Shown here piece after piece: positions 20,775-57,513 of a DNA stretch of 64,000 nucleotides. Source of the DNA: Candidatus Omnitrophota bacterium. GTDB taxonomy: Bacteria; Omnitrophota; Gorgyraeia; JAHJTE01. Made by a program: the position numbers and the translations under genes. The notes under the pieces were generated by a model, which was not told where the DNA came from, searched no databases, and saw only the letters and a program-made list of their open reading frames with translations. Where the stretch lies: NCBI GenBank assembly GCA_040753675.1, contig JBFMEB010000002.1:41888-105887 (forward strand). Direction: 5' to 3'. The first letter of the stretch is position 1; each line of letters begins with the position of its first letter.

Positions 20775-21374
20775 ATGGCGAATTTCCCTTTTACTTTAGA
20801 AAATCTTATCAATGAGTTGATAAAGATGCCTGGCATAGGCCGGCGCAGTGCCCAACGCATTGCTTTTTACATCCTGAATTCTCCCAGGCCAGAAATACAA
20901 AAGCTGGTCTCTTGCATTGTGAAGGCAAAGGAGTCCATATGTTTTTGTAAAGTCTGCAACAATTTGAGCGATAAAGAAATCTGCTCTATCTGCCAGGACC
21001 AAAAACGCAATAAACGTAGTCTCTGTATCGTCGAGGGGCCGAATGATGTGGCAGTCATTGAGAATTCCGACATATTTAACGGGCTATACCATGTTTTACT
21101 CGGGGCTATTGCTCCCTTAGACGGGAAAGGCCCGCAGGACTTAAAGATTAACGGATTGTTAAACCGCATAAAGAACGACGCTATTAATGAAGTAATAATT
21201 GCTACTGATGCCGATACAGAAGGAGAGACCACTGCTTTATACTTGACCAAATTACTTAAGCCCACCAATATTAAGATTACCCGCATTGGCTTGGGGATTC
21301 CCATGGGAAGTAATATCGAATACGCAGATTCCCAGACAATAAGCCGCGCCTTCGAGCATAGAAAAGAAATCTAA
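20775..21374 (+). CDS. recR: recombination protein RecR
   Basis: HhH MPGIGRRSAQRIAFYIL, C4 zinc finger, Toprim domain. Confidence 0.9.
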   Translation: MANFPFTLENLINELIKMPGIGRRSAQRIAFYILNSPRPEIQKLVSCIVKAKESICFCKVCNNLSDKEICSICQDQKRNKRSLCIVEGPNDVAVIENSDIFNGLYHVLLGAIAPLDGKGPQDLKINGLLNRIKNDAINEVIIATDADTEGETTALYLTKLLKPTNIKITRIGLGIPMGSNIEYADSQTISRAFEHRKEI

Positions 21375-21382
21375 ATTCTTAG

Positions 21383-22549
21383 ATGCTAAATAATATATTT
21401 AATAAGAAGATATCACGAAGAGATTTTTGCAAGGTTTGTATTTTTAGCGCTTTGGGCCTTGGTATTTCTCCTCTAATTATGGATTTGTTTAAAAATTTTG
21501 CAAACTCAGAAGATGAAAAAGCTGGTATGGGCTTTATTGAGCCTAAGGAAGCAATGTTTTATGAAAAAGTGGATGATGAGACAATTCAATGCCACCTGTG
21601 TCCTCGAAACTGCACTCTTAAACATGGAATGAGAGGTTTCTGCCGTGCTAGAGAATCGCGCAATGGGAAACATTACAGTTTTGTTTATGCAAATCCAACA
21701 GCAGTGCACATTGATCCAATAGAGAAAAAGCCACTTTTTCATTTCTTGCCAGCTACAACTGCTTTTTCTATTGCCACTGCAGGCTGTAATTATCGGTGCA
21801 AATATTGTCAGAACTGGCAGATTTCTCAATTTCCGCCTGAAGAAACATTCAATCAGAATTTAGCACCCAAGGCTGTAGTTGAGCAAGCTAAAAGATTTAA
21901 TTGTCAAACAATCGCTTATACATATAGCGAGCCATCTGTATTCTATGAATATATGTTAGATACTGCAAAAATTGCAAAGATTTATGGCATTAAAAATATT
22001 TATCACTCTAACGGTTCTCTTAACCCTAAGCCAGTAGAGGAATTGTCTGTTTATTTGGACGCTGCTAATATTGACCTTAAAGGCTTCACGCATGAATTCT
22101 ACAAGAATATCCCAGAGGGTGATTTGGACACTGTGTTAAATACGATAAAGATTCTTAAGAAAAAGTCTGTGCATGTAGAGATTACCAACCTAATAGTACC
22201 TTCTCTTAATGATGATATGCAGACAATAAGAAAAATGTGCCTTTGGCTAAGAGATGAGGTAGGTAATGATGTTCCCATACATTTTTCAAGGTTTACTCCT
22301 ACTTACAAGTTAAAAAATCTATCTCCCACCCCAATAAAAACGCTGGAACAAGCAAGAAACATTGCTAAAAAAGAAGGGCTACTCTTCGCTTATATCGGCA
22401 ATGTCCCAGGACATGAAGGGGAAAATACCTATTGTCCGCGGGATGCCAAAGTGTTAATTCGCAGAATTGGCTATACGATAATAGAGAATAATATAGTTGG
22501 CGGAAAATGTAAATTCTGCGGATATCAGATTGCCGGCGTCTGGTCGTAA
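21383..22549 (+). CDS. AmmeMemoRadiSam-system radical SAM enzyme with N-terminal twin-arginine (Tat)-like signal
   Basis: CNYRCKYCQNW (CxxxCxxC) radical SAM motif, PFL-activase-like architecture. N-terminus KKISRRDFCKVCIFSALGLGISPL resembles a Tat signal. Linked with the MEMO1/AMMECR1 gene at 24844-26313. Confidence 0.8.
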   Translation: MLNNIFNKKISRRDFCKVCIFSALGLGISPLIMDLFKNFANSEDEKAGMGFIEPKEAMFYEKVDDETIQCHLCPRNCTLKHGMRGFCRARESRNGKHYSFVYANPTAVHIDPIEKKPLFHFLPATTAFSIATAGCNYRCKYCQNWQISQFPPEETFNQNLAPKAVVEQAKRFNCQTIAYTYSEPSVFYEYMLDTAKIAKIYGIKNIYHSNGSLNPKPVEELSVYLDAANIDLKGFTHEFYKNIPEGDLDTVLNTIKILKKKSVHVEITNLIVPSLNDDMQTIRKMCLWLRDEVGNDVPIHFSRFTPTYKLKNLSPTPIKTLEQARNIAKKEGLLFAYIGNVPGHEGENTYCPRDAKVLIRRIGYTIIENNIVGGKCKFCGYQIAGVWS

Positions 22550-22576
22550 ATTAACTTTAGATAAATTAAACTAAAT

Positions 22577-24877
22577 ATGAAAAAAAATCTCATTTTTTCT
22601 TTGATATTAATTGGCTTTAGTGCTATGGCTGGCCAGATAGTCTTAATGCGCCAGCTTATGGTAATATTCTATGGCAATGAACTTTCTTTAGGCATAACCT
22701 TGGCTATTTGGCTATTTTGGACAGGACTTGGTAGTCTGATAATAGGTAAATGGCTATCAGCAAAGATAAAACAAAAGTTTACTCTTTTTTGTTTTGGAGA
22801 AATTTTATTGGGTTTGCTTTTGCCTTTGAGCCTCTTCGCCGCAAGACTCATTCCTTTATGCTTTAATTATTCAGCCGGAGAGATAATCGGCCTCTTACCT
22901 ATGAGTTTAGCAACATTTTTATTATTAGCGCCTACTTGTATTTTAATAGGTTTTCTTTTTGTTTTAGGTTGCGAGGTTTATGTTAGTTTAGAAAATAGAA
23001 ATCTTGAGAAGGCAAGTGAGATTGGTTATGTATATATCTTAGAGGCGCTGGGTGCTTCTATAGGAGGATTAATAATCAGCTTTTTTCTAATTCGTATACT
23101 TACACCTATTTACATAATGGCTTTAATTACTTTTTTAAATCTTTTAGCTGCCTTTTTGCTTTTAGTAAATAATAAAATTTTAAAAATTTTTACAGGCATT
23201 ATTATCATAACTTTTTTGTTTTTAATTTTCTCTGGCAACTTAGAACTATTGAATCAAAAGACGCTAAATTTAGAGTGGAGAGGTTATGAGCTTCTTGCTT
23301 ACCAGGATTCAATATATGGCAACATTGCTGTTACAAAGAAAGAGGATGTTTTTACTATTTTTAATAATGGGCTGTATGATTTTAGTGTACCTGATGAATT
23401 GAGTAGCGAAAGAATGGCACATTTTCCGTTGTTGGAACACCCTCTACCTAAGAAGGTTTTGCTTATAGGTGGCGGTTCAAGTGGTCAGATAAATGAGGTG
23501 TTAAAACATCCAGTAGACTTAGTAGACTATGTTGAGCTTGACCCTCTTTTAATTAAAATGGCAAAAAAATACCTTTCCTCTACTAAAGCATTCAACGATA
23601 AAAGAGTCAGAGTTATTTCTAATATGGATGCAAGACTATTCATAAAAAGGACAGATAATATTTATGATGTAATTATAATAAGTTTACCAGCTCCAAACAC
23701 TGCCCAGCTTAACAGGTTCTATACCAAGGAATTCTACGAAGAAGCAAAAAAGATTCTGGACGAAAAAGGAGTACTATCTTTCTGCCTTTATTCAAACCCT
23801 AATTATATTAGCTCAGAACAGGCTCAACTTTATATGACATTAAAGAATACGCTTTGGGCTGTTTTTCCTGAAGTAGTGATTACGCCAGGAGAAGTAAATT
23901 ATTTTTTAGCTTCTAATATTAAAGGTCTACTTACTTTAGATTGGCAAAAACTTATACAGCGACTTAAAGAGAGAAACATACAAGCAAAATATATGAGAGA
24001 ATATTATCTTTATAGCGAGCTTAGTAATGAAAGGATTGATGCATTTGGAAAGAATCTACTTCTTGAGTCAACAAGTGTCATAAACAGGGATTTTAAACCA
24101 ATTGCTTATTATTATAATCTGGTTTTATGGAGCACATATTTTAAATACAATCTTAAAAAAGTATTTCAATATATAGATGCCAAGAAGATTTATCTGATAG
24201 TCGCGGCTGTCTTTATTCTTTTGCTTTTACCTTCTTGTTTTAGCAGTTTAAAGAAAAGATTGCCTCATTTTGGGGTGTTAACCTGTGTTAGCACAACTGG
24301 TTTTGCTGAAATAACTTTTCAGATTGTAACCTTGATTTCTTTTCAGGTTATATATGGTTTTGTATATTATAAACTTGGGATTATCTTGACTTCTTATATG
24401 ATTGGCTTGATTTTTGGCAGCTGGCTAATTACAAAAAGATTAGAGAGAAATACAGCGCCTAAGAGAGGATATTATTCTTTATTTCTTAAAACTCAAGTTT
24501 TGATATTTACTTATCCATTAATATTGCTGTTTTTTATTTGGTTATTTTCAAATTTTAAAAAAGGTTTTGGCCTATGGATAGGTTCAAATATCATCTTTCC
24601 ATTTTTGCCAATAATTGCTGGTTTTATAGGTGGCTTTCAATTTCCTTTGGCTAATAAACTTTATCTAAAATCTAATGATTTAGACCTTGCACACTCTGCT
24701 GGCATTACTTATGCTTTAGACCTTTTTGGCTCTTGCATCGGAGCAGTTATTAGCACTGTATTCTTGGTTCCTATTATTGGAATACCATTGACATGCATTT
24801 TAGTGGCGGTTTTAAATCTGGTGGGTTTGATATTGCTTTTGACTTACTCAGCAAAAACCTCGGCGCTAAAAATATAG
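22577..24877 (+). CDS. spermidine-synthase-family (aminopropyltransferase-like) protein with N- and C-terminal polytopic membrane domains
   Basis: 766 aa. Central Rossmann region VLLIGGGSSG...DVIIISLPAP flanked by many TM helices (COG4262-like architecture). Confidence 0.65.
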   Translation: MKKNLIFSLILIGFSAMAGQIVLMRQLMVIFYGNELSLGITLAIWLFWTGLGSLIIGKWLSAKIKQKFTLFCFGEILLGLLLPLSLFAARLIPLCFNYSAGEIIGLLPMSLATFLLLAPTCILIGFLFVLGCEVYVSLENRNLEKASEIGYVYILEALGASIGGLIISFFLIRILTPIYIMALITFLNLLAAFLLLVNNKILKIFTGIIIITFLFLIFSGNLELLNQKTLNLEWRGYELLAYQDSIYGNIAVTKKEDVFTIFNNGLYDFSVPDELSSERMAHFPLLEHPLPKKVLLIGGGSSGQINEVLKHPVDLVDYVELDPLLIKMAKKYLSSTKAFNDKRVRVISNMDARLFIKRTDNIYDVIIISLPAPNTAQLNRFYTKEFYEEAKKILDEKGVLSFCLYSNPNYISSEQAQLYMTLKNTLWAVFPEVVITPGEVNYFLASNIKGLLTLDWQKLIQRLKERNIQAKYMREYYLYSELSNERIDAFGKNLLLESTSVINRDFKPIAYYYNLVLWSTYFKYNLKKVFQYIDAKKIYLIVAAVFILLLLPSCFSSLKKRLPHFGVLTCVSTTGFAEITFQIVTLISFQVIYGFVYYKLGIILTSYMIGLIFGSWLITKRLERNTAPKRGYYSLFLKTQVLIFTYPLILLFFIWLFSNFKKGFGLWIGSNIIFPFLPIIAGFIGGFQFPLANKLYLKSNDLDLAHSAGITYALDLFGSCIGAVISTVFLVPIIGIPLTCILVAVLNLVGLILLLTYSAKTSALKI

Positions 24878-26313
24878 ATATCGCATTTACCTCTTTTCCA
24901 GGCATCTATGCTCATACCGGCTTTTTGACCACAGAGGGAATTCATAAATTCTTCTTTGCTCCAACCTGTTTCGGTTGCTACTTGCGGCAAATAAACTCCG
25001 CTTCTAAAAAAGTCTTTTACAATCACGCCGTGTTTACCCATAATTATTTCATCCGTATTGGTCGTCTTTTTTAAAGGTGAGAGCACTGATATCTCGATGT
25101 GGATATCTTTTAGTTCCTCTTTTGTAACCGGGCTAAACCTCGGGTCTTCAGTGGCTGATGCGATTGCCATATCTCTAACAGTTATATAAAGAGGGCCTAT
25201 GGCTTCAATGTGGCCGATACAACCGCGAAGCTCGCCTTTCTTATGTAAGGTAACAAAAGCACCCATGGGTTTTTTTAATAAAGGGTCATCTTCTTTTACT
25301 TCTAAGACCTTTCCCGTAGTGAGGTAGTGCGTGATTGTATTTCGTGCGATTTTTAAGAGTTTCTGTTTTTGCTCTTTGGTTAACAAATCTTTTTCTTTCA
25401 TTGGATTATTCTCCGAAATGGTTTTATCAGTTTCTTTTAGAAAAGCAGCGCTTAAATAACCTACGACTCTGCTTTTATCAAGCGTAGAATCTCCTGAATT
25501 TGCTTCTCTTAAGATCTCTATGCTGCTTGCTCCTAATTTTTTTGCTGCAATCATAGTGGAAGTAACTGTAGCCAGGCCACACATTCGGTTTTGGTTGGAA
25601 CTTGCTAAGAATAATTTCTCTGGCTCAAATTCTTTTATTAAGTTGATTGCTTCAGAATCAACGCCTATTGCCTGCTCATACGGCAAATAATGGCTCATAT
25701 CGGTGCTTGCTACAATTAAAAAATCTTTTTCACCTTTTAGTATTTCATATAGACTTGTGCCTAAGACTTCGCAACTTTCTAAAGTCTGATTTCCGATGGC
25801 AAGAAGCACTATTTTTGGATTTCCTAAAGCCGCTTGGATAAAAGGTAAAGTAAGTTCAATAGAATTTTCATCTTCGAAGAAAATACTGTTGCCAAAAATC
25901 TTCTTATTAGTCTTTAATAAATTTTCTCTTAATTCTTTGTTAGTATATAAGACGCCTAAGGGAGTTCGTATACCGTCTTTATTAAATACAGCAATACCAT
26001 CATAATCTTTTCTGTGGCTGAAGCCCACAACTATTACTGTGTCTATTTTTTTATTTTGCACAAGTTTAAATCCGTATGCCGCAACAGGCCCGGAATATTG
26101 AAGGCCTGCATGGGGTGAGATGATGGCTAAGACTTCGCCACTTACTTGTGGAGGATTGGCTACCTCTAAATAACCTTTAATCTGATTATAAAGTTTTTGG
26201 CTGTTCGCCGGATACCATGTTCCGGCCAGATCTGAGTCTTTGATGTCTTGGCAAAAGGCAGGAGAGGAGAATAGGAAGAGAAAGAGTAAAATTAAGAATA
26301 ATTTTAAACGCAT
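24844..26313 (-). CDS. MEMO1-like (AmmeMemoRadiSam protein B) fused to AMMECR1 (protein A), with Sec signal peptide
   Basis: Signal peptide MRLKLFLILLFLFLFSSPAFC. MEMO-type His motifs (SPHAGLQYSG, DMSHY). C-terminal AMMECR1 motif LRGCIGHIE. 3' end overlaps the convergent upstream gene by 34 bp. Confidence 0.8.
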   Translation of the reverse strand: MRLKLFLILLFLFLFSSPAFCQDIKDSDLAGTWYPANSQKLYNQIKGYLEVANPPQVSGEVLAIISPHAGLQYSGPVAAYGFKLVQNKKIDTVIVVGFSHRKDYDGIAVFNKDGIRTPLGVLYTNKELRENLLKTNKKIFGNSIFFEDENSIELTLPFIQAALGNPKIVLLAIGNQTLESCEVLGTSLYEILKGEKDFLIVASTDMSHYLPYEQAIGVDSEAINLIKEFEPEKLFLASSNQNRMCGLATVTSTMIAAKKLGASSIEILREANSGDSTLDKSRVVGYLSAAFLKETDKTISENNPMKEKDLLTKEQKQKLLKIARNTITHYLTTGKVLEVKEDDPLLKKPMGAFVTLHKKGELRGCIGHIEAIGPLYITVRDMAIASATEDPRFSPVTKEELKDIHIEISVLSPLKKTTNTDEIIMGKHGVIVKDFFRSGVYLPQVATETGWSKEEFMNSLCGQKAGMSIDAWKRGKCDIYIFSAEVFAE

Positions 26314-26406
26314 TTTAGGTCTTTGTGGTAATTATTTCCCAGAGTTAATGCGCCTGTGCAATCCTATGAAGAAGCTTTGAGATAAAAGTCTGGTACCGGA
26401 TGCCCA

Positions 26407-26568
26407 TTATCTGACCTTTCGCAATGCCTGGCTTGCTGATATGTTTACCACCTTGCCGTTGCGCCATACCGATAGAGGACGGCCAGTACGTTTGTGTTCT
26501 AACACAACTTCATAGACTGCCTCTTTAAGTGCTTTAAAGGCCTTTGCTTGTAACGTTTTCTTAGTCAT
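26407..26568 (-). CDS. small hypothetical protein (53 aa), possible partner of zeta-like kinase
   Basis: Hand-translated ORF MTKKTLQAKAFKALKEAVYEVVLEHKRTGRPLSVWRNGKVVNISASQALRKVR. Starts 7 bp after the zeta-like gene stop. Below the track length cutoff. Confidence 0.35.
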   Translation of the reverse strand: MTKKTLQAKAFKALKEAVYEVVLEHKRTGRPLSVWRNGKVVNISASQALRKVR

Positions 26569-26574
26569 TATGAT

Positions 26575-27147
26575 TTACCTCGCTGCTTTTAGTATCTTTT
26601 CAAATAAATCCTTGTTAACAACTTCTGTCTTTGTGTCCTTCTCGCGGGCAATCAGCTGCGGCACAGCATCTGCATTATTGAATAGCAACCAGGTATCGGC
26701 CAATTGCCTGTAATAAACAAGAAAATTATGCAATCCTCTATAAAATCTCCTTTTTACATCTACAGCCGGTACATCATGTCCGCCAGCAGCAACTCTGTCT
26801 TTTATGCGTTTCAGCGCAAGTTCAGAGTTTGGGATCCAAAGGAAAAATATATTTATAGAATAACCTCTTTTCTTTAACTCTTTCACAAAAGTTACATACG
26901 ATTTACCTGATAAGGTGGTTTCAAAAGCAAAGTCAACATTCTTATCTGCCATATTCCGTATTTGCTCCAACACAAGTCTACCAGCTCTTATAGCTGCTGC
27001 CTTCGGTGAAAATGGCGATAAACCTTGAGCAATTAGATCAGCATTTACGAAATTCTGGCATTTTGCGTAATCCGGAAGGAATTTCTTAGCAAAAGTAGTT
27101 TTGCCGGAACCGTTAGGACCTGCAATTATATAAACGTTCTTAGCCAT
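26575..27147 (-). CDS. zeta-toxin-like P-loop kinase (AAA/zeta_toxin family)
   Basis: Walker A IIAGPNGSGKTT, zeta-toxin-like fold length (190 aa). Confidence 0.65.
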   Translation of the reverse strand: MAKNVYIIAGPNGSGKTTFAKKFLPDYAKCQNFVNADLIAQGLSPFSPKAAAIRAGRLVLEQIRNMADKNVDFAFETTLSGKSYVTFVKELKKRGYSINIFFLWIPNSELALKRIKDRVAAGGHDVPAVDVKRRFYRGLHNFLVYYRQLADTWLLFNNADAVPQLIAREKDTKTEVVNKDLFEKILKAAR

Positions 27148-27380
27148 AGTTAGAATTATATCCTAAACAAAAGCCCTTCGCAAGCGTTTTGCCTGCAAAG
27201 GGCTTTCAGATGATTGGCTCCACCGCGAGGTCGTCGCTCCCTTTCTGTCGCTCCTCTTTAAAAGGAAACCCTGATGGTTTCCTTTTAATATTTTTCTTCC
27301 TTCTGCAGGTAGAAGTAGAATAAGGGGAAAATGCAACATTTTCCCCTTATCATCCCCTTTCTTTTCCTCGCGGGCTCGCC

Positions 27381-27428
27381 AAAAATAAGAAAGGCCCAGA
27401 TTTCTCTGGGCCTATTTTTGGCTCCCCG
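27381..27428 (-). repeat. copy of 'tRNA-Asn 3' end + terminator hairpin' module (att-scar-like)
   Basis: Minus strand reads GGGGAGCCAAAAATAGGCCCAGAGAAATCTGGGCCTTTCTTATTTTT. Near-identical to 59890-59936 with compensatory stem changes. Confidence 0.55.
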
Positions 27429-27844
27429 TGCAACACTCCGAGCGAACAAAAATCCTCAAAGCCATTGCTGAAATTATACCATACCATTATCGTTACTTCA
27501 ATAGAACTAAAACGTTATATTTAGGCGAAAGGCCGTCTTTTATCCCGAAAAATAGGATAATTACGAAAAAAGAGATGCGACATTTTAACTACCTCAACTC
27601 TTATGTAAATCCGATAGTCAGGGCTAAGGAATACCTGGAATTGCTTAAAAAGGAAGGCTTAAGCCAGAATAAGCTGGCTAAGCGGCTTGGAATTTCAAGG
27701 GTAAGGATAACGCAGTTTCTAAACCTGCTTAAACTGCCTAAAAGGCAGCAAAACTATATCTTAAGGCATGGGAAAAAGGAATTGATAACCGAAAGGGCTA
27801 TACGAAAGGGCATATTTGCTGCCAGTGGGGTGCAAAAATTATGA
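27428..27844 (+). CDS. truncated ParB/KorB-like HTH protein
   Basis: LAKRLGISRVRITQFLNLLKLPKRQQ resembles the ParB HTH and 'LLKLP..VQ' motif. No N-terminal ParB/Srx domain. Confidence 0.45.
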   Translation: MQHSERTKILKAIAEIIPYHYRYFNRTKTLYLGERPSFIPKNRIITKKEMRHFNYLNSYVNPIVRAKEYLELLKKEGLSQNKLAKRLGISRVRITQFLNLLKLPKRQQNYILRHGKKELITERAIRKGIFAASGVQKL

Positions 27845-27907
27845 GAACTGCTAAGGTGTGTTGTATCCTCTTTATAAATCAATGAGTTGTGAAAGGAGTA
27901 ATAATTC

Positions 27908-28975
27908 ATGTTTGGCAATAATACTTATACCAAAGATAACTGGATTTTTCAAGAGTTTTTGCTGCTTTTAGGCCATCTGGTCCATAGTAACCTTTTAAGG
28001 CAGATAGATTATCTTAAAGTGGAAAATCGAATACTCCGAAGTAAGTTGGGGCAAAGGGTAAATATCACCATATCAGAGAAACGAAGGCTCATCAAATATG
28101 GTCTGCCTTTAGGTGGGAGTATCAGGAATTTCATATCTATTGTCAGTTATTCTACCTTTCGTAGATGGGTTAGTAACGGCATATCCAAAAATAAAACCAA
28201 TACTGCCAGGGGCAGAAGACGAACTCCTGAGGAGATAAGGGAATTGATCGTAAGGTTAGCCAAGGAGAATAACTGGGGTTACACCAGGATATTGGGTGAA
28301 CTGAAGAAACTACGAATATACAGTATCTCCAGAAATACAGTTAAGAATATCTTGCGCGAAAATGGCCTTGATCCGGCTCCAAGACGCTCTGAGGATACCT
28401 GGGATGCTTTTATCAAGAGGCATTTTAAGACCCTCTGGGCGTGTGATTTCTTTACCAAGACTGTATGGACAATGTTAGGTCCTAAAACCTTCTATTGTTT
28501 ATTCTTCATCAATATCTGGACGCGCAAGGTCCATATCGCAGGGATTACAAAACATCCTGATAAGGAATGGGTAAATGACAAGGCAAGGGCTGTATCTTTC
28601 TTCTTTAAGGCTGACGATGGCTCAAGGAAGCTTTTGATTCGGGACAGCGATACAAAATTCTCAAGGGAATTCGATGAGATAATAAATAGATACGGCGCAG
28701 AGGTTAAAAGAATCCCTTACCGCTCACCAAATCTAAATCCTTACGCTGAAGGATGGGTTGGGACGATCAAACGAGAATGCCTGGATTACTTCTTTGTCTT
28801 CGGTGAAAAACATTTCAGATACCTCGTCAAAGAATACGTCAAATACTACAACACTGTAAGACCACATTCGTCTTTGGATAACATGCCCATAAATTACAGG
28901 GCAAAAAACGGCAACGGAAAACTCAAATGTGATTCACGACTTGGAGGCCTTATCAGGCATTATTACCGCGAATGA
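27908..28975 (+). CDS. DDE transposase, IS3/IS481 family (rve integrase core)
   Basis: N-terminal HTH (GYTRILGELKKLRIYSISRNTVKNIL), DDE core with D..D..E spacing and KYYNTVRPHSSL tail motif. Terminal inverted repeats not identified. Confidence 0.8.
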   Translation: MFGNNTYTKDNWIFQEFLLLLGHLVHSNLLRQIDYLKVENRILRSKLGQRVNITISEKRRLIKYGLPLGGSIRNFISIVSYSTFRRWVSNGISKNKTNTARGRRRTPEEIRELIVRLAKENNWGYTRILGELKKLRIYSISRNTVKNILRENGLDPAPRRSEDTWDAFIKRHFKTLWACDFFTKTVWTMLGPKTFYCLFFINIWTRKVHIAGITKHPDKEWVNDKARAVSFFFKADDGSRKLLIRDSDTKFSREFDEIINRYGAEVKRIPYRSPNLNPYAEGWVGTIKRECLDYFFVFGEKHFRYLVKEYVKYYNTVRPHSSLDNMPINYRAKNGNGKLKCDSRLGGLIRHYYRE

Positions 28976-28991
28976 ACGAAAGGGGTAAACC

Positions 28992-29258
28992 ATGCGATTT
29001 AGAAGAATCGAAGCATATCTGATTTTAGGATGTTACTTGGCAATTGGTGCATTGGCAGGATATTTTGTCGGCAAGGAAAGGCCGGTTACGAAGCCAAACA
29101 CCGTCACCGTGGATGTCGTCAAGGAAGGCGATGAAATTCTGATTTACGAGCATTATTCAGGGGAGTTGGTATTTGAGTATAATAAGAATAAGGAAGTGGA
29201 TAAGACCGCCTATAAGGAATTTGAGGATACATGGGAGGAAATAAAAAGTTTGAAGTAA
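28992..29258 (+). CDS. small hypothetical membrane-anchored protein
   Basis: N-terminal hydrophobic helix. No recognisable domain. Confidence 0.35.
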   Translation: MRFRRIEAYLILGCYLAIGALAGYFVGKERPVTKPNTVTVDVVKEGDEILIYEHYSGELVFEYNKNKEVDKTAYKEFEDTWEEIKSLK

Positions 29259-29321
29259 TTCAAAAACGATTGCCTTCATTTTAGTAATGCAAGCTTATCA
29301 AAACTAGAATATTATCTCCCT

Positions 29322-29999
29322 TTATTTATTGTTTTTTAATTTCTCAGGGTGATGTTTAACGATCTTTGCAGAAACCATATAGATAACATCTTCTGCAATG
29401 TTTGTAGCGTGGTCACAAATGCGCTCTAAATGACGGGCAATCAAGAGTAGGGGCACGGCGCCTGATACAGTAGTTGAATCCTTACTCATATAATCTTCGA
29501 TTAATTCTTTTTGAACCAAATTACGCAATCTATCCGCTTCGCTATCAAGCAAAATTACCTTTCCTGCTAAATCCGCATCCTTATTTACAAAGGCGTCCAA
29601 GGCATCTTTTGTCATCTGTTTAGCGACACTGGTTAATTTTGGAATATCGATAAGAGGTTTAAGTAATGGCTTACCTGCCAGTTCTAAAACGCGCTGAGCG
29701 ATATCTACAGCTAAATCTGCTATTCTCTCTAAATCCGTAGAGATCTTCATCGACATTGTTATGAAGCGCAAATCAACAGCCATTGGTTGCCTTAATGCCA
29801 ATAAATCAAGGCACTTTTCATCAATTTCATTTTCTAATTCATCAATAATCCTATCGTCAGCAATAACCTTATTGGCCTCTTCTATGCTAAGTTGTTTGAG
29901 GGCTTCTATGGAGCTAGATATAGCCTCTTCTACCAACGCGCCCATCTTTAGTAATACTTTCTTTAAATTCGCTAATTCTTCATCAAAATGTCTTTCCAT
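29322..29999 (-). CDS. phoU: phosphate signaling complex protein PhoU
   Basis: 225 aa, duplicated PhoU repeats. Downstream of pstB. Confidence 0.9.
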   Translation of the reverse strand: MERHFDEELANLKKVLLKMGALVEEAISSSIEALKQLSIEEANKVIADDRIIDELENEIDEKCLDLLALRQPMAVDLRFITMSMKISTDLERIADLAVDIAQRVLELAGKPLLKPLIDIPKLTSVAKQMTKDALDAFVNKDADLAGKVILLDSEADRLRNLVQKELIEDYMSKDSTTVSGAVPLLLIARHLERICDHATNIAEDVIYMVSAKIVKHHPEKLKNNK

Positions 30000-30023
30000 C
30001 GACTACCTCTTCTTTTATCTTTT

Positions 30024-30782
30024 TTATCCAAACCTTCCGGTAATATAATCTTCGGTTCTTTTATCCTTTGGCGCTTTAAAAATTTCTTCGGTTTTACCAA
30101 ACTCAATTAACTCGCCAAGTAGGAAAAATCCAGTTTGATCCGAAACCCTTGCTGCCTGTTGCATATTATGGGTCACTATTATTATGGTATAATTTTGTTT
30201 TAGATGAAATATCAACTCTTCAATTTTGCCTGTAGAGATAGGATCCAAGGCAGAGCAGGGCTCATCAAATAAAATTAGTTCCGGCTTAACCGCTAAAGCA
30301 CGCGCAATACACAGCCTCTGCTGCTGGCCTCCGGAAAGACTCACCCCGGAAGCATTGAGCTTATCTTTTACCTCATCCCATAAAGCAGCCATCTTAAGGG
30401 TCTGTTCCACTATTTCATCAAGATTATCCTTTCTTTTAATGCCGTTTAATTTTAGGCCCGCTGCCACATTGTCGTATATAGAGAGCACCGGGAAGGGATT
30501 TGGTTTCTGAAATACCATACCCACCTTTCGCCTTATCTCAATGGGATCAACATCAGCCGAATAAATATCTTTACCATCTAATAAAACTTCTCCCGAAACC
30601 TTGGCGTTCAGCACGACTTCATGCAGCCTGTTTATACAACGAATAAAGGTTGACTTGCCGCAGCCAGAAGGACCGATAATAGCGGTAACCATCTTTTCAG
30701 CAATGGACATATTGATATTCTTTAACGCCTGGGTATTACCAAAATATGCATTCAAGTTGGAAACTATAACTTCTTCTTTCAT
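30024..30782 (-). CDS. pstB: phosphate ABC transporter ATP-binding protein
   Basis: Walker [13 protein letters not shown] signature LSGGQQQR. Confidence 0.95.
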
Positions 30783-30791
30783 GTTAATTCC

Positions 30792-31643
30792 TTATCTTGA
30801 TATTAATGATTTGTAGCGTAATTTAATCACGAACCGGCTGATAAAACTGATTAAGAAAACCATAACAATCAATACAAATGCTCCAGCCCAGGCCTGCCTG
30901 TGCCAGTCATCAAAAGGAGAAATGGCATAGGAGAATATCTGTAATGGAAGCGCTGCAATAGGCTGAGTAAGGTTTTGATGCCAGAACCTGTTGCCTAAAA
31001 CAGTAAAAAGTAACGGCGCAGTCTCACCTGCTATGCGCGCTATAGCCAATAATATCCCCGTAAGTATGCCGGGCAGCGCGGTCTTAAGTACTATACTAAA
31101 CATTGCCCTGAATTGGTTAATGCCCAAAGCCAACGCCGCTTCGCGAATAGTGCGAGGCACCATTAATAACATCTCTTCAGTTGTGCGCATTATCGTTGGG
31201 ATCATAATTATTCCCAAAGCAAAAGCGCCGCTTATCGCTGAAAAGCTTTTCATCGGAATGACAAACAAGGTATAAGCAAATATCCCGATTACAATTGAGG
31301 GGATTCCGTTTAATACGTCCGCTGCGAATCTGACGGTTGTGCCTAATTTATTATTGCCAAATTCAGCCAAATAAATTCCACCTGCTATTCCTAAGGGTAT
31401 TGCCCACAAACTAGAAAGACCAATTAAAATAAGAGTTCCTACGATGGCATTACTCATGCCTCCGCCAACCTCGCCTACTGGCTTTGGCAGATGAGTAAAA
31501 AAATCAAGATTTATACTGGAGATCCCTTTAATGATGACGTAGCCAAAAATGCTTATCAGAGGCACCAAAGTTAAAATCGCGCAGAACAATGTAATTGTGC
31601 ACATTAATTTATTGATGACTTTTCTGTTTTTATAAGTGTTCAT
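30792..31643 (-). CDS. pstA: phosphate ABC transporter permease PstA
   Basis: 6-TM permease with EAA-like loop. Operon position. Confidence 0.9.
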   Translation of the reverse strand: MNTYKNRKVINKLMCTITLFCAILTLVPLISIFGYVIIKGISSINLDFFTHLPKPVGEVGGGMSNAIVGTLILIGLSSLWAIPLGIAGGIYLAEFGNNKLGTTVRFAADVLNGIPSIVIGIFAYTLFVIPMKSFSAISGAFALGIIMIPTIMRTTEEMLLMVPRTIREAALALGINQFRAMFSIVLKTALPGILTGILLAIARIAGETAPLLFTVLGNRFWHQNLTQPIAALPLQIFSYAISPFDDWHRQAWAGAFVLIVMVFLISFISRFVIKLRYKSLISR

Positions 31644-32566
31644 TCTCTAATCTGGCCTTTTACCTTGTTTGAAACTCTCCAAATCAAAAGCCGCGCGATA
31701 ATATTAATGACAAGGGTAACAAAAAACAATACCAGCCCTACTTCGATCAGCGCCGAAAGATACAAGTTGCTGGTAGCTTCAGCAAATTCGTTGGCGATAA
31801 CCGAAGCCATGGTATATGCTGGAGCAAATAATGAAGCGGAGATCTCCGGCCGGTTACCTATTACCATAGTAACTGCCATAGTTTCGCCCAATGCCCTTCC
31901 CAGCCCCAAGATTACTGCGCCCAAAATACCTGTCCGGCTATACCCTAATACCGCAAGTCTGATAACTTCCCAAGGCGTTGCCCCTAACGCTACTGCCGCT
32001 TCTCGCTGAGTAAAAGGCACAACCAGAAAAACTTCTCTGCATACCGAAGAAATAGTCGGTATAATCATGATGCTAAGTATAATACCAGCCGTTAACATAC
32101 CCACACCGTAGAATTGTCCCTGAAATAGAGGAAGAAATCCAAAGTATTTAGTCAAAAACGGCTGGACGGTTATCCTTAAAAATGGCGCCAGAACAAATAT
32201 CCCCCAAAGACCATAGATTACGCTGGGTATGGCGGCTAATAGCTCAATTAAAAAACTCAAAGGCTGCCTTATAAACTGCGGCGCTAATTCAGCCAGATAA
32301 ATGGCAATTCCTAAAGAAACCGGCACAGCAAGTAAAAGCGCTAAGAATGAAGTGACAACCGTTCCGTAAATAAACGGCAGAGCCCCGAATATCTCCTTAA
32401 CCGGATCCCATGTGCTGGTAAATAAAAAATTCCAGCCAAACTTCTGTATTGCAGGTCCAGCATTTCGGCTCATGCTATAAACCAAAAGCAGCGTTAAGGC
32501 AACCACTGACAAGCCCAATACAGTGGTCGTCTTTTTAAACCAGATATCAATAAATCTTATTCTCAT
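31640..32566 (-). CDS. pstC: phosphate ABC transporter permease PstC
   Basis: Polytopic permease. Overlaps pstA start by 4 bp. Confidence 0.9.
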   Translation of the reverse strand: MRIRFIDIWFKKTTTVLGLSVVALTLLLVYSMSRNAGPAIQKFGWNFLFTSTWDPVKEIFGALPFIYGTVVTSFLALLLAVPVSLGIAIYLAELAPQFIRQPLSFLIELLAAIPSVIYGLWGIFVLAPFLRITVQPFLTKYFGFLPLFQGQFYGVGMLTAGIILSIMIIPTISSVCREVFLVVPFTQREAAVALGATPWEVIRLAVLGYSRTGILGAVILGLGRALGETMAVTMVIGNRPEISASLFAPAYTMASVIANEFAEATSNLYLSALIEVGLVLFFVTLVINIIARLLIWRVSNKVKGQIRE

Positions 32567-57210: not shown

Positions 57211-57513
57211 CCCGAAATTACTTTCGGAAGTGGACTATATTATTGCCGGCGACTTTACGTTTCGGCAGCGGGTATATAGTCTCTGCACATTTACTCCGAT
57301 TTCTCGAAGACTTAGCTCAGGATTACCCCTGCTGTTTCGTTTTGCTTCGCAAAAGCGAAACAAAACGACAGGGGTTTCCCTGAATTAGCCCGCTTTTTCA
57401 TCTACGGTTTCCCGTAGAAGCTGCCATTTAAGATCCCTCGGCTTCGCCTCGGGATCAAATCCGCCTTTGGCGGATTTGACAGCCACCCGCTCTACCAACT
57501 GAGCTACAGGGGA
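57143..57513 (-). tRNA. tRNA-Asn(GUU) interrupted by a group I intron (exon1 57479-57513, exon2 57143-57183, CCA encoded)
   Basis: Exon1 is TCCCCTG-TA-GCTCAGTTGGTAGAGC-G-GGTGG-CTGT. Exon2 is TAA-CCACC-ATGTC-CGAGGTTCGAGTCCTCG-CGGGGGA-G-CCA. Acceptor and anticodon stems pair perfectly across the 295-nt insertion. U1-A72 and loop CUGUUAA match Asn. Confidence 0.75.
57184..57478 (-). ncRNA. group I self-splicing intron (no ORF)
   Basis: Core R element GTGCAGAGACTATA and S element AATATAGTCC (P7 pairing). P4-like GCGGG/AATCC. 5' exon ends in U, intron ends in G. Candidate IGS GCAGCU pairs with exon GGCUGU. Confidence 0.7.

What the first reader, a model, noticed from the sequence alone, without database searches (positions are those of the whole stretch)
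21383..26313. AmmeMemoRadiSam system that appears extracytoplasmic, with an inserted membrane aminopropyltransferase-like gene
The radical SAM enzyme (CNYRCKYCQNW) starts with a Tat-like signal (SRRDFCK plus hydrophobic helix). The MEMO1 and AMMECR1 partners are fused in one 489-aa protein with a Sec signal peptide. A 766-aa spermidine-synthase-fold protein flanked by polytopic membrane domains lies between them. The convergent genes overlap by 34 bp at their 3' ends. The substrate of AmmeMemoRadiSam systems is unknown. A periplasm-targeted version with a membrane aminopropyltransferase partner suggests an envelope-associated modification.
Basis: partly seen in the sequence, partly recalled or inferred. 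Interest (0 to 1): 0.65.

Follow-up and report, generated by a model that had tools for sequence, protein, structure and literature searches.

The report
Exported radical-SAM/MEMO/AMMECR1 membrane module
An uncultured Omnitrophota bacterium encodes a radical-SAM enzyme, a MEMO–AMMECR1 fusion and a transporter-like membrane protein that all carry conserved signals placing them outside the cytoplasm, where radical-SAM chemistry has never been shown, and the same gene set recurs in many uncultured bacteria.

Summary
The three ORFs, their family memberships (TIGR04337, TIGR04336 and TIGR04335, all above cut-off) and the 34-bp 3' overlap are real. The export signals are conserved family features, not start-codon artefacts. 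104 of 106 full-length rSAM homologs have a twin-arginine-type signal. 105 of 107 fusion homologs have a Sec-type signal.

The 766-aa gene is not an insertion. It is a conserved partner: the rSAM is adjacent in 56 of 72 loci anchored on this gene, and it is present in 15 of 20 well-flanked loci from distant lineages anchored on Tat-type rSAMs. It is an MFS-type 6+6-helix transporter. Two extra helices display a SpeE-like domain on the predicted periplasmic face. That domain keeps its adenosyl-binding residues but lacks the aminopropyltransferase Asp residues.

Relatives add independent support for export. tatC abuts the rSAM in four loci. Sec-type rSAM variants co-occur with a CcdA/DsbD-like gene. 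Some relatives are fused to FMN_bind or NapH-like domains.

Best reading: an extracytoplasmic AmmeMemoRadiSam variant. Its MFS–SpeE-like partner supplies SAM, or the substrate, across the membrane. Everything here is prediction and the chemistry is unknown. This is a new variant of a known kind, of high interest.

The parts
21383..22549 (+). AmmeMemoRadiSam radical SAM enzyme (388 aa) with an N-terminal export signal
   Evidence: TIGR04337 361.9 bits, cut-off 220. Pfam Radical_SAM. 100 % identical to an NCBI Candidatus Omnitrophota MAG protein.
21383..21511 (+). Twin-arginine (Tat-type) signal, aa 1-43: n-region with S-R-R-D-F-C-K (RR = aa 12-13), moderately hydrophobic h-region, c-region K-N-F-A|N
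   Evidence: Lies upstream of the TIGR04337 core, which starts at aa 58. Conserved in 104 of 106 full-length homologs, median h-region hydropathy 1.9. It is the only Tat-type N-terminus among 94 window ORFs of at least 100 aa.
21590..21643 (+). N-terminal Cx2Cx3Cx9C motif (aa 70-87), a candidate auxiliary Fe-S site
   Evidence: CHLCPRNCTLKHGMRGFC. Conserved in Tat-type and Sec-type relatives; the no-signal relatives carry the same motif.
21785..21808 (+). Radical SAM CX3CX2C motif (CNYRCKYC, aa 135-142)
   Evidence: Aligns with the PflA cluster motif (3C8F).
22577..24877 (+). 'sp': 766-aa MFS-type membrane protein with an inserted SpeE-like domain, starting 27 bp after the rSAM stop
   Evidence: NF037959 'fused MFS/spermidine synthase' 60.2 bits, cut-off 40. 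PRK03612 only 173 bits against a cut-off of 472. AF2 pLDDT 88, pTM 0.88. 350 species-representative genomes encode a relative.
22580..23161 (+). MFS-like N-terminal six-helix bundle (TM1-6, aa 2-195)
   Evidence: AF2 helices. Foldseek top hits are almost all MFS transporters, TM-score about 0.5. Homologous to TM9-14 by hhalign, 97.3 %, E = 2e-11.
23174..23230 (+). Linker helix TM7 (aa 200-218), predicted to run from inside to outside
   Evidence: AF2 and positive-inside analysis.
23288..24076 (+). SpeE-like (class I Rossmann) domain, aa 238-500, predicted periplasmic. Gly loop GGGSSG, E320 and D351 are kept. The canonical Asp residues are replaced (S301, S369, A372).
   Evidence: 1INL E = 6.6e-23. 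Foldseek 1UIR and 1INL, TM-score about 0.72 on the target. Residue frequencies in 105 relatives. Topology.
24179..24238 (+). Linker helix TM8 (aa 535-554), predicted to run from outside to inside
   Evidence: AF2. The loop after it is K/R-rich, mean 2.8.
24269..24847 (+). MFS-like C-terminal six-helix bundle (TM9-14, aa 565-757), containing the GGFQFPLAN motif
24844..26313 (-). MEMO-AMMECR1 fusion protein (489 aa) with a signal peptide
   Evidence: TIGR04336 232 bits and TIGR04335 183 bits. Pfam Memo and AMMECR1.
26251..26313 (-). Sec-type signal peptide, aa 1-21 (MRLK + L/F-rich core + A-F-C|Q)
   Evidence: 105 of 107 homologs have a K/R n-region and an h-region with median hydropathy 3.15. 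The first Met lies 6 codons into the stop-to-stop ORF.
25441..26232 (-). MEMO domain (aa 28-291). Metal-site residues are kept (PHAG His, GFSH His, D..SH).
   Evidence: Aligns with human MEMO1 7KQ8/3BCZ, E = 1.4e-14.
24853..25362 (-). AMMECR1 domain (aa 318-487) with a conserved LRGCIG motif
   Evidence: Aligns with PH0010 (1VAJ) and MM0484 (1ZQ7), E about 2e-30.
24844..24877 (.). 34-bp overlap of the convergent 3' ends
   Evidence: ORF coordinates. Not conserved in relatives. The sp tail aa 760-766 has pLDDT below 50. No terminator-like site lies there.

Best explanation
This is an extracytoplasmic variant of the AmmeMemoRadiSam system, built from three conserved parts.

(i) The radical SAM enzyme is folded and loaded with its Fe-S clusters in the cytoplasm. 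It is then exported by the Tat pathway.

(ii) The MEMO-AMMECR1 fusion is exported by Sec.

(iii) The co-transcribed 766-aa protein is an MFS-type carrier. Two extra helices hold a SpeE-like, adenosyl-ligand-binding domain on the periplasmic face.

I propose that this carrier moves across the membrane what the exported enzymes lack. Most likely that is S-adenosylmethionine, perhaps in exchange for 5'-deoxyadenosine or methionine. It then presents the cofactor to the rSAM at the membrane surface. The three proteins together would modify a substrate in the cell envelope.

Shown here:
- family memberships;
- conservation of the signals;
- 7 + domain + 7 architecture;
- the 6+6 internal repeat and MFS fold;
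- loss of the aminopropyltransferase residues with retention of the adenosyl-binding ones;
- bidirectional gene linkage across lineages;
- linkage to tatC, DsbD_2 and FMN_bind in relatives.

Inferred, not shown:
- actual export;
- the side on which the SpeE-like domain sits;
- SAM as the transported ligand;
- the nature of the substrate.
For: Signals:
- A twin-arginine-type motif is present in 104 of 106 full-length rSAM homologs, with a Tat-like h-region (median hydropathy 1.9).
- A Sec-like signal (median 3.15) is present in 105 of 107 fusion homologs.
- Tat-type N-termini also occur on distant TIGR04337 representatives, including Desulfatibacillaceae and Planctomycetota MAGs.

Linkage:
- The rSAM lies immediately upstream of sp on the same strand in 51 loci, and convergent in 5 more, out of 72 sp-anchored genome loci with enough flank.
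- In metagenome loci anchored on a distant rSAM (GC 0.33-0.67), sp lies within 8 kb in 15 of 20 Tat-type loci with at least 4 kb of flank. Gene orders vary.

Topology:
- Family-mean K+R is 1.9/3.0/2.0/2.5 and 2.8/2.4/3.2/1.7 in alternate loops, against 0/0.7/0.95 and 0/0.9/0 in the others.
- AF2 gives 7 + 7 helices.
- TM1-6 is homologous to TM9-14, so the two halves are parallel and the insert faces away from both termini.
- The N-half has an MFS fold.

SpeE-like domain:
- E320 is kept in 104 of 105 relatives and D351 in 105 of 105, and the Gly loop is kept.
- The dcSAM-selective Asp is never present.
- The catalytic Asp is present in only 7 of 105.
- N379-R380 is invariant.

Independent support for export:
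- tatC (± tatA) abuts the Tat-signal rSAM in L005, L009, L017 and L032.
- DsbD_2/CcdA-like genes lie within 3 kb of 14 of 28 Sec-type rSAMs, against 2 of 84 Tat-type and 0 of 20 signal-less ones.
- P0378 is anchor + FMN_bind + rSAM with no intervening TM helix. P0376 is DsbD_2 + FMN_bind + Fer4_5 + rSAM. FMN_bind/NapH-like modules are extracytosolic electron conduits (PMC8238504).
- A Tat-signal DUF362 protein is a fourth neighbour in 27 loci.
Against: - No periplasmic SAM pool or low-potential reductant is known (established knowledge). The window encodes no NapH-like, DsbD_2, DUF362 or tatC gene within 64 kb.
- One clade has an rSAM with no signal next to sp and a lipoprotein-type fusion. 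So sp cannot serve only an exported rSAM.
- 16 of 72 sp loci lack an adjacent rSAM.
- One representative, P0485, reads as an rSAM-sp fusion. If real, it would put the rSAM on the cytoplasmic side, but it looks like two merged overlapping ORFs.
- No MFS SAM carrier is known.
- The invariant N-R-x-Y and the mostly acidic position 372 could equally mean the SpeE-like domain is an active enzyme, not a cofactor receiver.
- Dedicated signal and topology predictors were not available. There are no experimental data for any member.
Confidence: 0.5

Rival explanations
1. The export and topology are the same, but sp is a pathway enzyme or substrate carrier, not a cofactor supplier. Its MFS part would flip or export the substrate, for example a lipid or isoprenoid-linked molecule. 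Its periplasmic SpeE-like domain would be an active alkyl-transferase on that substrate, working before or after the rSAM, MEMO and AMMECR1 steps.
For: - The SpeE-like domain is under strong purifying selection beyond the cofactor site. N379-R380-x-Y382-T383 in the gate loop is invariant, and position 372 is Asp/Glu in 94 of 105 relatives.
- Invariant residues cluster in predicted periplasmic loops of the membrane part (FYGNE at aa 31-35, GEIIG at aa 101-105). This is the pattern seen in enzymes that act at the membrane surface.
- MFS members include lipid flippases; Spns1 is among the fold hits.
- sp persists in the clade whose rSAM has no signal.
- From memory, Burroughs et al. 2019 (JBC; not held) linked Memo contexts to isoprenoid modification.
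Against: - The window's own protein has Ala at position 372 and Ser at position 369, so it lacks both acidic residues.
- This domain would still need SAM or dcSAM outside the cell, so the supply problem remains.
- No lipid-biosynthesis genes recur in the neighbourhood.
Confidence: 0.27
2. The signals do not lead to export. On this view the twin-arginine N-terminus is a membrane anchor or a chaperone-binding remnant, as in NarG. The true topology of sp is inverted, so the rSAM and the SpeE-like domain work at the cytoplasmic face where SAM and reductants exist. Only MEMO-AMMECR1 would be outside, or none of the proteins.
For: - Radical SAM chemistry needs SAM and a low-potential electron donor, which are known only in the cytoplasm (established knowledge).
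- Signal-less rSAMs occur in otherwise identical modules.
- NapH-like-rSAM fusions with 6 predicted TM helices would place the rSAM inside.
- The apparent fusion P0485.
- The Omnitrophota signal region is unusually conserved and contains a CxxC.
Against: - The charge bias puts the N-terminus inside and the enzyme outside. A small-x-small cleavage site is conserved in 103 of 104 homologs with a twin-arginine-type motif.
- Both halves of sp independently obey positive-inside with the domain outside.
- tatC is operonic with the rSAM.
- Sec-type variants co-vary with a CcdA-like reductant carrier, which only makes sense for a periplasmic target.
- P0378 fuses the rSAM to an extracytosolic-type FMN_bind domain with no TM helix between them.
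- Partners DUF362 and MEMO-AMMECR1 carry their own signals.
Confidence: 0.15
3. The adjacency is inherited synteny with no shared function. On this view sp is an unrelated polyamine or MFS transporter gene that merely sits beside an AmmeMemoRadiSam operon in Omnitrophota.
For: - Most of the 80 genome loci come from one phylum, so their counts are not independent.
- Several other neighbours (pstB, trxB, yggS and others) are plainly syntenic.
Against: - The pairing recurs in loci with GC from 0.33 to 0.67.
- It recurs in at least six different gene orders and orientations.
- The genes are often separated by less than 30 bp or overlap.
- The linkage holds in both directions.
Confidence: 0.05

Closest known systems
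AmmeMemoRadiSam system (NCBIfam/TIGRFAMs TIGR04335 protein A = AMMECR1, TIGR04336 protein B = Memo, TIGR04337 radical SAM enzyme)
   Same: All three components are present and score above the curated cut-offs. The Cys motifs, the MEMO metal site and the AMMECR1 LRGCIG motif are conserved. Rosetta-stone fusions of the three domains exist in relatives.
   Different: Here A and B are fused. The fusion carries a Sec signal and the rSAM a Tat signal. A fourth, MFS-SpeE-like membrane component is the tightest neighbour. About half of the closest 150 cluster representatives have no N-terminal extension. The system's biochemical function is unknown in every version: no functional paper was found in the held library.
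NCBIfam NF037959 'fused MFS/spermidine synthase', and PRK03612 membrane-anchored polyamine aminopropyltransferase (COG4262-type)
   Same: An N-terminal polytopic domain followed by a SpeE-fold domain. NF037959 scores 60 bits against a cut-off of 40. The fold matches SpeE structures 1INL and 1UIR.
   Different: It has a second six-helix bundle after the domain, giving 6+1 | domain | 1+6. It scores far below the PRK03612 (173 vs 472) and TIGR00417 (101 vs 250) cut-offs. The dcSAM-selective and catalytic Asp residues are absent. The domain is predicted periplasmic. I found no experimental work on NF037959 proteins.
Pyruvate formate-lyase activating enzyme (PflA) and other glycyl-radical-enzyme activases
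   Same: The closest solved radical SAM structure (3C8F, E = 4e-7) and the best non-family NCBIfam hits. JGI names many homologs 'pyruvate formate lyase activating enzyme'.
   Different: All scores fall far below the equivalog cut-offs. This enzyme has an extra N-terminal 4-Cys motif and a C-terminal Cys-ribbon. No glycyl-radical enzyme partner is present. It carries an export signal.
ApbE-flavinylated NapH-like / DsbD-like extracytosolic electron-transfer modules (Meheust et al. 2021, PMC8238504)
   Same: Relatives of this rSAM are fused to, or encoded beside, FMN_bind + Fer4_5 (PF12801) and DsbD_2 membrane modules. These are the kind of conduit that paper describes for unknown extracytosolic redox enzymes.
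   Different: The window itself has no such gene within 64 kb. The paper's main text does not mention Memo, AMMECR1 or DUF362.
Tat-exported Fe-S/cofactor enzymes (for example [NiFe]-hydrogenase small subunits, DMSO-reductase family) - an analogy for the export route only
   Same: S/T-R-R-x-F-L-K motif, a mildly hydrophobic h-region and an A-x-A site on a protein that must fold around Fe-S clusters before export. tatC is operonic in relatives.
   Different: None of those enzymes uses SAM. I know of no radical SAM enzyme shown to be a Tat substrate, and a search for radical SAM + twin-arginine + periplasmic gave 14 papers, none of whose listed titles or abstracts (13 shown) describes one; only the top hit was opened.

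Membership tests
AmmeMemoRadiSam radical SAM enzyme (TIGR04337) | Whole-protein HMM score at or above the curated cut-off (220 bits) | tested here: met
   361.9 bits, E = 2.7e-108, aa 58-387 on profile positions 2-333 of 349.
AmmeMemoRadiSam radical SAM enzyme (TIGR04337) | Radical SAM CX3CX2C cluster motif | tested here: met
   CNYRCKYC at aa 135-142. Pfam Radical_SAM 77.5 bits.
AmmeMemoRadiSam radical SAM enzyme (TIGR04337) | Genomic co-occurrence with AMMECR1 and Memo homologs | tested here: met
   The fusion gene lies 2.3 kb downstream in the window. It is also present in about half of the 80 metagenome loci. Triple fusions occur in relatives.
AmmeMemoRadiSam radical SAM enzyme (TIGR04337) | Reductive cleavage of SAM (enzyme activity) | not testable with these tools
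   Needs biochemistry.
AmmeMemoRadiSam protein B (Memo, TIGR04336 / PF01875) | HMM score above the cut-off, and His/Asp/His metal-site residues | tested here: met
   232.1 bits against a cut-off of 26. The PHAG, GFSH and D..SH residues align with human MEMO1.
AmmeMemoRadiSam protein A (AMMECR1, TIGR04335 / PF01871) | HMM score above the cut-off, and the LRGCIG motif | tested here: met
   182.6 bits against a cut-off of 99. ELRGCIGH aligns with PH0010 and MM0484.
Polyamine aminopropyltransferase / spermidine synthase (TIGR00417, PRK00811, PRK03612) | Equivalog HMM score above the cut-off | tested here: not met
   100.9 vs 249.6, 115.3 vs 260 and 173.1 vs 472.
Polyamine aminopropyltransferase / spermidine synthase (TIGR00417, PRK00811, PRK03612) | GGGDGG loop Asp (selects dcSAM) and the two Asp of the D-S-x-D-P catalytic/amine-binding motif | tested here: not met
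   The window has GGGSSG and S-L-P-A-P. In 105 relatives, position 301 is V/I/A/L/S, position 369 is Asp in only 7, and position 372 is D/E in 94 but Ala in the window.
Polyamine aminopropyltransferase / spermidine synthase (TIGR00417, PRK00811, PRK03612) | SpeE fold (N-terminal beta-hairpin domain plus Rossmann domain) with ribose-binding Glu and adenine-binding Asp | tested here: met
   Foldseek 1UIR/1INL/6BQ2, TM-score 0.71-0.76 on the target. E320 and D351 are near-invariant.
Fused MFS/spermidine synthase (NCBIfam NF037959, subfamily) | HMM score above the cut-off (40 bits) | tested here: met
   60.2 bits, aa 103-435. NCBI gives the identical protein this name.
Major facilitator superfamily (fold) | Two homologous six-helix bundles of the same orientation | tested here: met
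   hhalign of TM1-6 against TM9-14: 97.3 %, E = 2e-11. AF2 helix map.
Major facilitator superfamily (fold) | Structural similarity to solved MFS transporters | tested here: inconclusive
Tat substrate | S/T-R-R-x-F-L-K motif, mildly hydrophobic h-region, A-x-A c-region | tested here: met
   ISRRDFCK in the window. 92 RR + 10 RK + 2 KR among 106 homologs, and 103 with a small-x-small site. The window's own c-region is N-F-A.
Tat substrate | Tat-dependent translocation | not testable with these tools
   Indirect only: tatC/tatA are operonic with the rSAM in L005, L009, L017 and L032. There is no tatC in the window.
Sec/SPase I secreted protein (the fusion) | Positive n-region, strongly hydrophobic h-region, small -3/-1 residues | tested here: met
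   MRLK / LFLILLFLFLF / A-F-C|Q. 105 of 107 homologs qualify. One clade has lipoboxes instead.

The most novel reading that the evidence does not exclude
This would be the first radical SAM system that works outside the cytoplasm. A Tat-exported (in some clades Sec-exported) rSAM would act with exported MEMO and AMMECR1 domains on an envelope substrate. It would be kept supplied with SAM by a dedicated MFS carrier whose periplasmic SpeE-derived domain has been re-purposed as an adenosyl-cofactor receiver. In other lineages it would be supplied with electrons or thiol reductant by NapH-like/FMN_bind or CcdA-like conduits. That would imply a periplasmic SAM economy. For the Sec-type clade it would also imply Fe-S cluster insertion outside the cytoplasm.
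Probability: 0.3. Interest if true: 0.9.

Novelty: new variant of a known kind. Interest (0 to 1): 0.74.

Why it matters
MEMO1 and AMMECR1 are conserved from archaea to humans and are linked to human disease. The reaction catalysed by either protein, or by their bacterial radical-SAM partner, is unknown.

A widespread version in which the whole system is addressed to the cell envelope narrows the search. It comes with a transporter-like partner and, in relatives, dedicated Tat, CcdA-like and flavin-based electron conduits. For this clade a nucleic-acid substrate becomes unlikely and an envelope or membrane substrate likely. It also supplies concrete handles for experiments: a soluble SpeE-like domain to test for ligand binding, a two-gene rSAM–carrier operon to express, and natural fusions to study.

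If export is real, it also breaks the working assumption that radical SAM chemistry is confined to the cytoplasm. It would then raise the question of how SAM and low-potential electrons reach the periplasm.

Tried and rejected
- **Mis-called start codons: rejected.** An in-frame stop directly precedes the rSAM ATG. Only 6 codons precede the fusion's first Met and 4 precede the sp start. The extensions are conserved at protein level.
- **sp as a bona fide spermidine synthase: rejected** on HMM cut-offs and active-site residues.
- **sp as an inverted 7+7 repeat carrier (UraA/SLC26-like): rejected.** The repeat is 6+6 and parallel.
- **Lipoprotein reading of the window fusion: rejected.** Phe sits at -1, and the Cys position varies among homologs. 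A sister clade does have lipoboxes.
- **Functional meaning of the 34-bp overlap:** no support. It is not conserved and there is no terminator there.
- **Riboswitch or leader RNA on the operon:** none found in the window, L005, L039 or L104.
- **Promoter and terminator scan:** nothing above shuffled expectation.
- **DUF362, NapH-like, DsbD_2 and tatC genes in the window:** none.
- **Literature:** no functional study of the bacterial system was found. No Tat/rSAM precedent was found among the listed hits, only one of which was opened. Nothing was found on membrane SpeE-like proteins or on Omnitrophota with Tat. Burroughs et al. 2019 could not be read.
- **Foldseek with the full-length model** returned only SpeE hits, so the N-terminal membrane half was modelled separately.
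- **P0485** as an rSAM–sp fusion was judged a probable merge of overlapping ORFs.

Full report
**What is there**

The window comes from an uncultured Candidatus Omnitrophota bacterium. All three proteins are 100 % identical to NCBI MAG proteins on a 110,862-bp contig.
- a 388-aa radical SAM protein, 21383-22549 (+);
- a 766-aa membrane protein, 22577-24877 (+), starting 27 bp after the rSAM stop;
- a convergent 489-aa protein, 24844-26313 (-), whose 3' end overlaps the 766-aa gene by 34 bp.

Curated HMMs confirm AmmeMemoRadiSam membership:
- TIGR04337: 361.9 bits, cut-off 220;
- TIGR04336: 232.1 bits, cut-off 26, aa 28-291;
- TIGR04335: 182.6 bits, cut-off 99, aa 318-487.

The catalytic signatures are intact:
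- CX3CX2C, an N-terminal Cx2Cx3Cx9C motif and a C-terminal Cys-ribbon in the rSAM;
- the His/Asp/His metal site of MEMO;
- LRGCIG in AMMECR1.

**Are the signals real?**

The starts cannot be moved upstream. An in-frame TAG directly precedes the rSAM ATG. Only a few codons precede the other two starts.

The TIGR04337 core begins at aa 58. The preceding 57 residues read n-region–S-R-R-D-F-C-K–hydrophobic stretch–K-N-F-A|N.
- Of 106 homologs with a complete N-terminus, 104 carry RR (92), RK (10) or KR (2) in this position.
- 103 have a small-x-small site 17-35 residues later.
- The hydrophobic core is only moderately hydrophobic (median 1.9), as expected for Tat signals.

The fusion starts MRLK–L/F-rich core–A-F-C|Q. 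Of 107 homologs, 105 have the same design with a much more hydrophobic core (median 3.15), as expected for Sec signals.

So both signals are conserved family features. Dedicated predictors were not available, and these statements rest on motif and hydropathy analysis. The window rSAM's cleavage site (N-F-A) is weaker than the A-x-A of most homologs, so it could stay membrane-anchored.

**The 766-aa protein ('sp')**

It is not a canonical aminopropyltransferase.
- It scores far below the equivalog cut-offs: TIGR00417 101 vs 250, PRK03612 173 vs 472. It does pass NF037959 'fused MFS/spermidine synthase' (60 vs 40).
- Its central domain has the SpeE fold: 1INL E = 6.6e-23 and Foldseek TM-score about 0.72.
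- Across 105 relatives, the ribose-binding Glu (E320) and adenine-binding Asp (D351) are essentially invariant.
- The Asp that makes SpeE select decarboxylated SAM is never present. The loop reads G-G-G-[VIALS]-[GSN]-G.
- The catalytic Asp is present in only 7 of 105.
- The second Asp is D/E in 94 relatives but Ala in the window protein.
- A family-specific N379-R380-x-Y382 motif is invariant.

An AlphaFold2 model (pLDDT 88, pTM 0.88) shows 7 TM helices, then the soluble domain, then 7 TM helices. Profile-profile comparison shows that TM1-6 is homologous to TM9-14 (97.3 %, E = 2e-11). The core is therefore a parallel 6+6 duplication, with TM7 and TM8 as extra linkers.

A separate model of the N-terminal half (pLDDT 86) matches almost exclusively MFS transporters. 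The scores are modest (TM-score about 0.5, E = 0.03-0.6).

Family-averaged K+R counts are high in the N-terminus and every second loop (1.9/3.0/2.0/2.5 in the first half, 2.8/2.4/3.2/1.7 in the second). They are near zero in the alternate loops. With both halves oriented alike and both termini inside, the SpeE-like domain falls on the periplasmic face.

**Is it a partner or an insertion?**

I fetched 80 species-representative genome loci anchored on sp, out of 350 genomes that encode a relative.
- The rSAM lies immediately upstream on the same strand in 51 loci.
- It lies in a convergent arrangement in 5 more.
- That is 56 of the 72 loci with enough flank.
- The MEMO-AMMECR1 fusion is adjacent in only about 8.

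I then fetched 80 metagenome loci anchored on distant Tat-bearing rSAMs, about 50 % identical to the window enzyme, with locus GC from 0.33 to 0.67.
- sp reappears in 28 of them, in at least six gene orders.
- Among loci with at least 4 kb on both sides, sp is present in 15 of 20 Tat-type loci. The fusion is present in 13 of 20.
- In these loci the rSAMs again carry twin-arginine motifs and nearly all the fusions carry signal peptides.

The linkage is therefore bidirectional and crosses lineages. sp is a core component, not an insertion.

**How widespread are exported versions?**

A full scan of 1.84 billion cluster representatives found 1,447 relatives at E ≤ 1e-30. The best 150 break down as follows:
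- 76 have no N-terminal extension;
- at least 21 have strict Tat signals, and several more have clear xRRxF motifs;
- 6 are Sec-like;
- 16 have long N-terminal fusions.

Named members include Desulfatibacillaceae and Planctomycetota MAGs.

**Independent lines that bear on export**

1. Using E. coli TatC and TatA as probes, I found tatC (± tatA) directly abutting the Tat-signal rSAM on the same strand in L005, L009, L017 and L032. It lies within a few kb in L125 and L086. L005 reads tatC–rSAM–sp–DUF362.
2. A Tat-signal DUF362 protein is a fourth neighbour in 27 loci.
3. A clade of rSAMs has plain Sec-type signals yet keeps every metal-binding Cys. In that clade a CcdA/DsbD_2 gene sits between the rSAM and sp, and feoAB lies upstream.
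   - DsbD_2 lies within 3 kb of 14 of 28 Sec-type rSAMs, against 2 of 84 Tat-type and 0 of 20 signal-less ones.
   - Fisher p = 1.5e-8. The loci are not independent, but three separate metagenome lineages show the pattern.
   - A transmembrane thiol-reductant carrier makes sense only if the Cys-rich enzyme is outside.
4. Natural fusions:
   - P0378 is membrane anchor + FMN_bind + rSAM with no TM helix between them (TM map);
   - P0376 is DsbD_2 + FMN_bind + Fer4_5 + rSAM;
   - P0362 and P0363 are FMN_bind + Fer4_5 + rSAM;
   - P0368 carries a CBM_11 and P0364 a beta-propeller behind a signal anchor.
   FMN_bind/NapH-like modules are documented conduits to mostly unknown extracytosolic redox enzymes (PMC8238504). 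That paper does not mention this system.

**What does not fit**

- No periplasmic SAM pool or suitable reductant is known.
- The window lacks tatC, DsbD_2, NapH-like and DUF362 genes within 64 kb.
- One clade pairs a signal-less 324-aa rSAM with sp, a lipoprotein-type fusion and a NapH-like gene. So the rSAM can apparently sit on either side of the membrane.
- 16 of 72 sp loci lack an adjacent rSAM.
- One apparent rSAM-sp fusion, P0485, looks like a merge of overlapping ORFs.

**Mechanism**

I favour the following model, with about 0.5 confidence for the whole chain. The rSAM is exported by Tat with its clusters in place. The fusion is exported by Sec. The MFS-SpeE-like protein is co-transcribed with the rSAM. 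It carries SAM across the membrane and presents it at the periplasmic face, possibly in exchange for 5'-deoxyadenosine or methionine. Together the proteins modify an envelope substrate.

The main rival (0.27) keeps the same topology. It makes sp the carrier and an active transferase for the substrate, for example a lipid.

A cytoplasmic-face reading (0.15) is disfavoured by the charge bias, the cleavage sites, the tatC and DsbD_2 linkages and the FMN_bind fusion.

Mere synteny (0.05) is disfavoured by the varied gene orders across GC classes.

**Comparison and novelty**

The parts belong to known families: AmmeMemoRadiSam and NF037959. I found no description of any of the following in the held literature:
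- an exported version;
- the MFS-SpeE-like partner;
- the Tat, CcdA or NapH links.

The one paper likely to discuss Memo gene contexts (Burroughs et al. 2019) could not be read. From memory, its abstract links Memo to nucleotide-base and isoprenoid modification.

I rate this a new variant of a known kind. Interest is high because a periplasm-addressed radical SAM enzyme is unexpected. The module also offers experimental handles on the long-standing question of what MEMO and AMMECR1 do.

Noticed in passing
window 57211-57440 (-): Confident Rfam group I intron hit (RF00028, 79.8 bits, full-length model). It directly abuts the 3' end of a 549-aa large serine recombinase gene (55561-57210, +). ARAGORN finds no tRNA anywhere in the window, so the host gene of the intron is unknown.
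   Followed up: partly
window 26575-28975: Just beyond the fusion gene lies a small mobile or addiction-type island. It holds a Zeta_toxin-family P-loop protein (26575-27147, -), a ParB-HTH protein (27428-27844, +) and an rve_3 integrase-core transposase (27908-28975, +).
   Followed up: partly
L005 10136-11308; L010, L018, L078; 23 metagenome loci (e.g. L137 13476-14486): A DUF362 (PF04015) protein, usually carrying its own twin-arginine signal, lies directly beside the rSAM/sp module in 27 loci. It is a candidate fourth component and is absent from the window.
   Followed up: partly
L033 7300-8001, L039 7339-8001, L074 7277-7951 and 7 similar loci; L101, L105, L138: A CcdA/DsbD_2-like membrane protein of about 220 aa is encoded between the rSAM and sp, specifically where the rSAM has a Sec-type signal instead of a Tat-type one. 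FeoA and FeoB genes lie directly upstream in the same clade.
   Followed up: yes
L005 6018-6737, L009 4907-5683, L017 5612-6515, L032 2830-3597: tatC (and tatA in L017) lies immediately upstream of the Tat-signal rSAM on the same strand. This suggests a Tat translocase dedicated to, or co-regulated with, the module.
   Followed up: partly
P0362, P0363, P0376, P0378 (protein representatives); L047, L055, L060, L069, L070 (neighbouring genes): The same rSAM family is fused to, or encoded next to, NapH-like FMN_bind + Fer4_5 (and once DsbD_2) membrane modules. These are the type described as extracytosolic electron conduits with unknown terminal enzymes.
   Followed up: partly
L047, L055, L060, L069, L070 (also L065, L076): A clade arranged sp> <fusion <rSAM. 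The rSAM has no signal at all (324 aa, starts MSKVKCLLCP). The MEMO-AMMECR1 fusion has a lipoprotein-type signal (..LFLFSC|). The enzyme and its partners are predicted to lie on opposite sides of the membrane.
   Followed up: partly
P0424, P0438, P0448, P0456, P0469 and others; P0384; P0377; P0419, P0441, P0464, P0490: Among the family representatives are many rSAM-AMMECR1-MEMO triple fusions of 900-1150 aa and one MEMO-AMMECR1-rSAM fusion. Several rSAMs are split by insertions of about 430 aa that look like inteins.
   Followed up: no
window 21413-21440 (rSAM aa 11-20) and homologs P0002-P0060: The Omnitrophota Tat signals are unusually conserved for signal peptides. They contain a CxxC (S-R-R-x-F-C-K-x-C) at the n/h-region boundary and a conserved SPLLxDLFKK stretch. 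This hints at a role beyond targeting.
   Followed up: no
window ~22000-32000: Cumulative GC skew peaks around 22-30 kb and the coding strand switches from + to - at the convergent gene pair. This is consistent with a replication-related strand switch near the module.
   Followed up: no
window 21375-21382: Only 8 bp separate the recR stop codon (ORF 20775-21374) from the rSAM start codon at 21383. No promoter-like site stands out, so the rSAM-sp pair may be co-transcribed with dnaX-recR.
   Followed up: no
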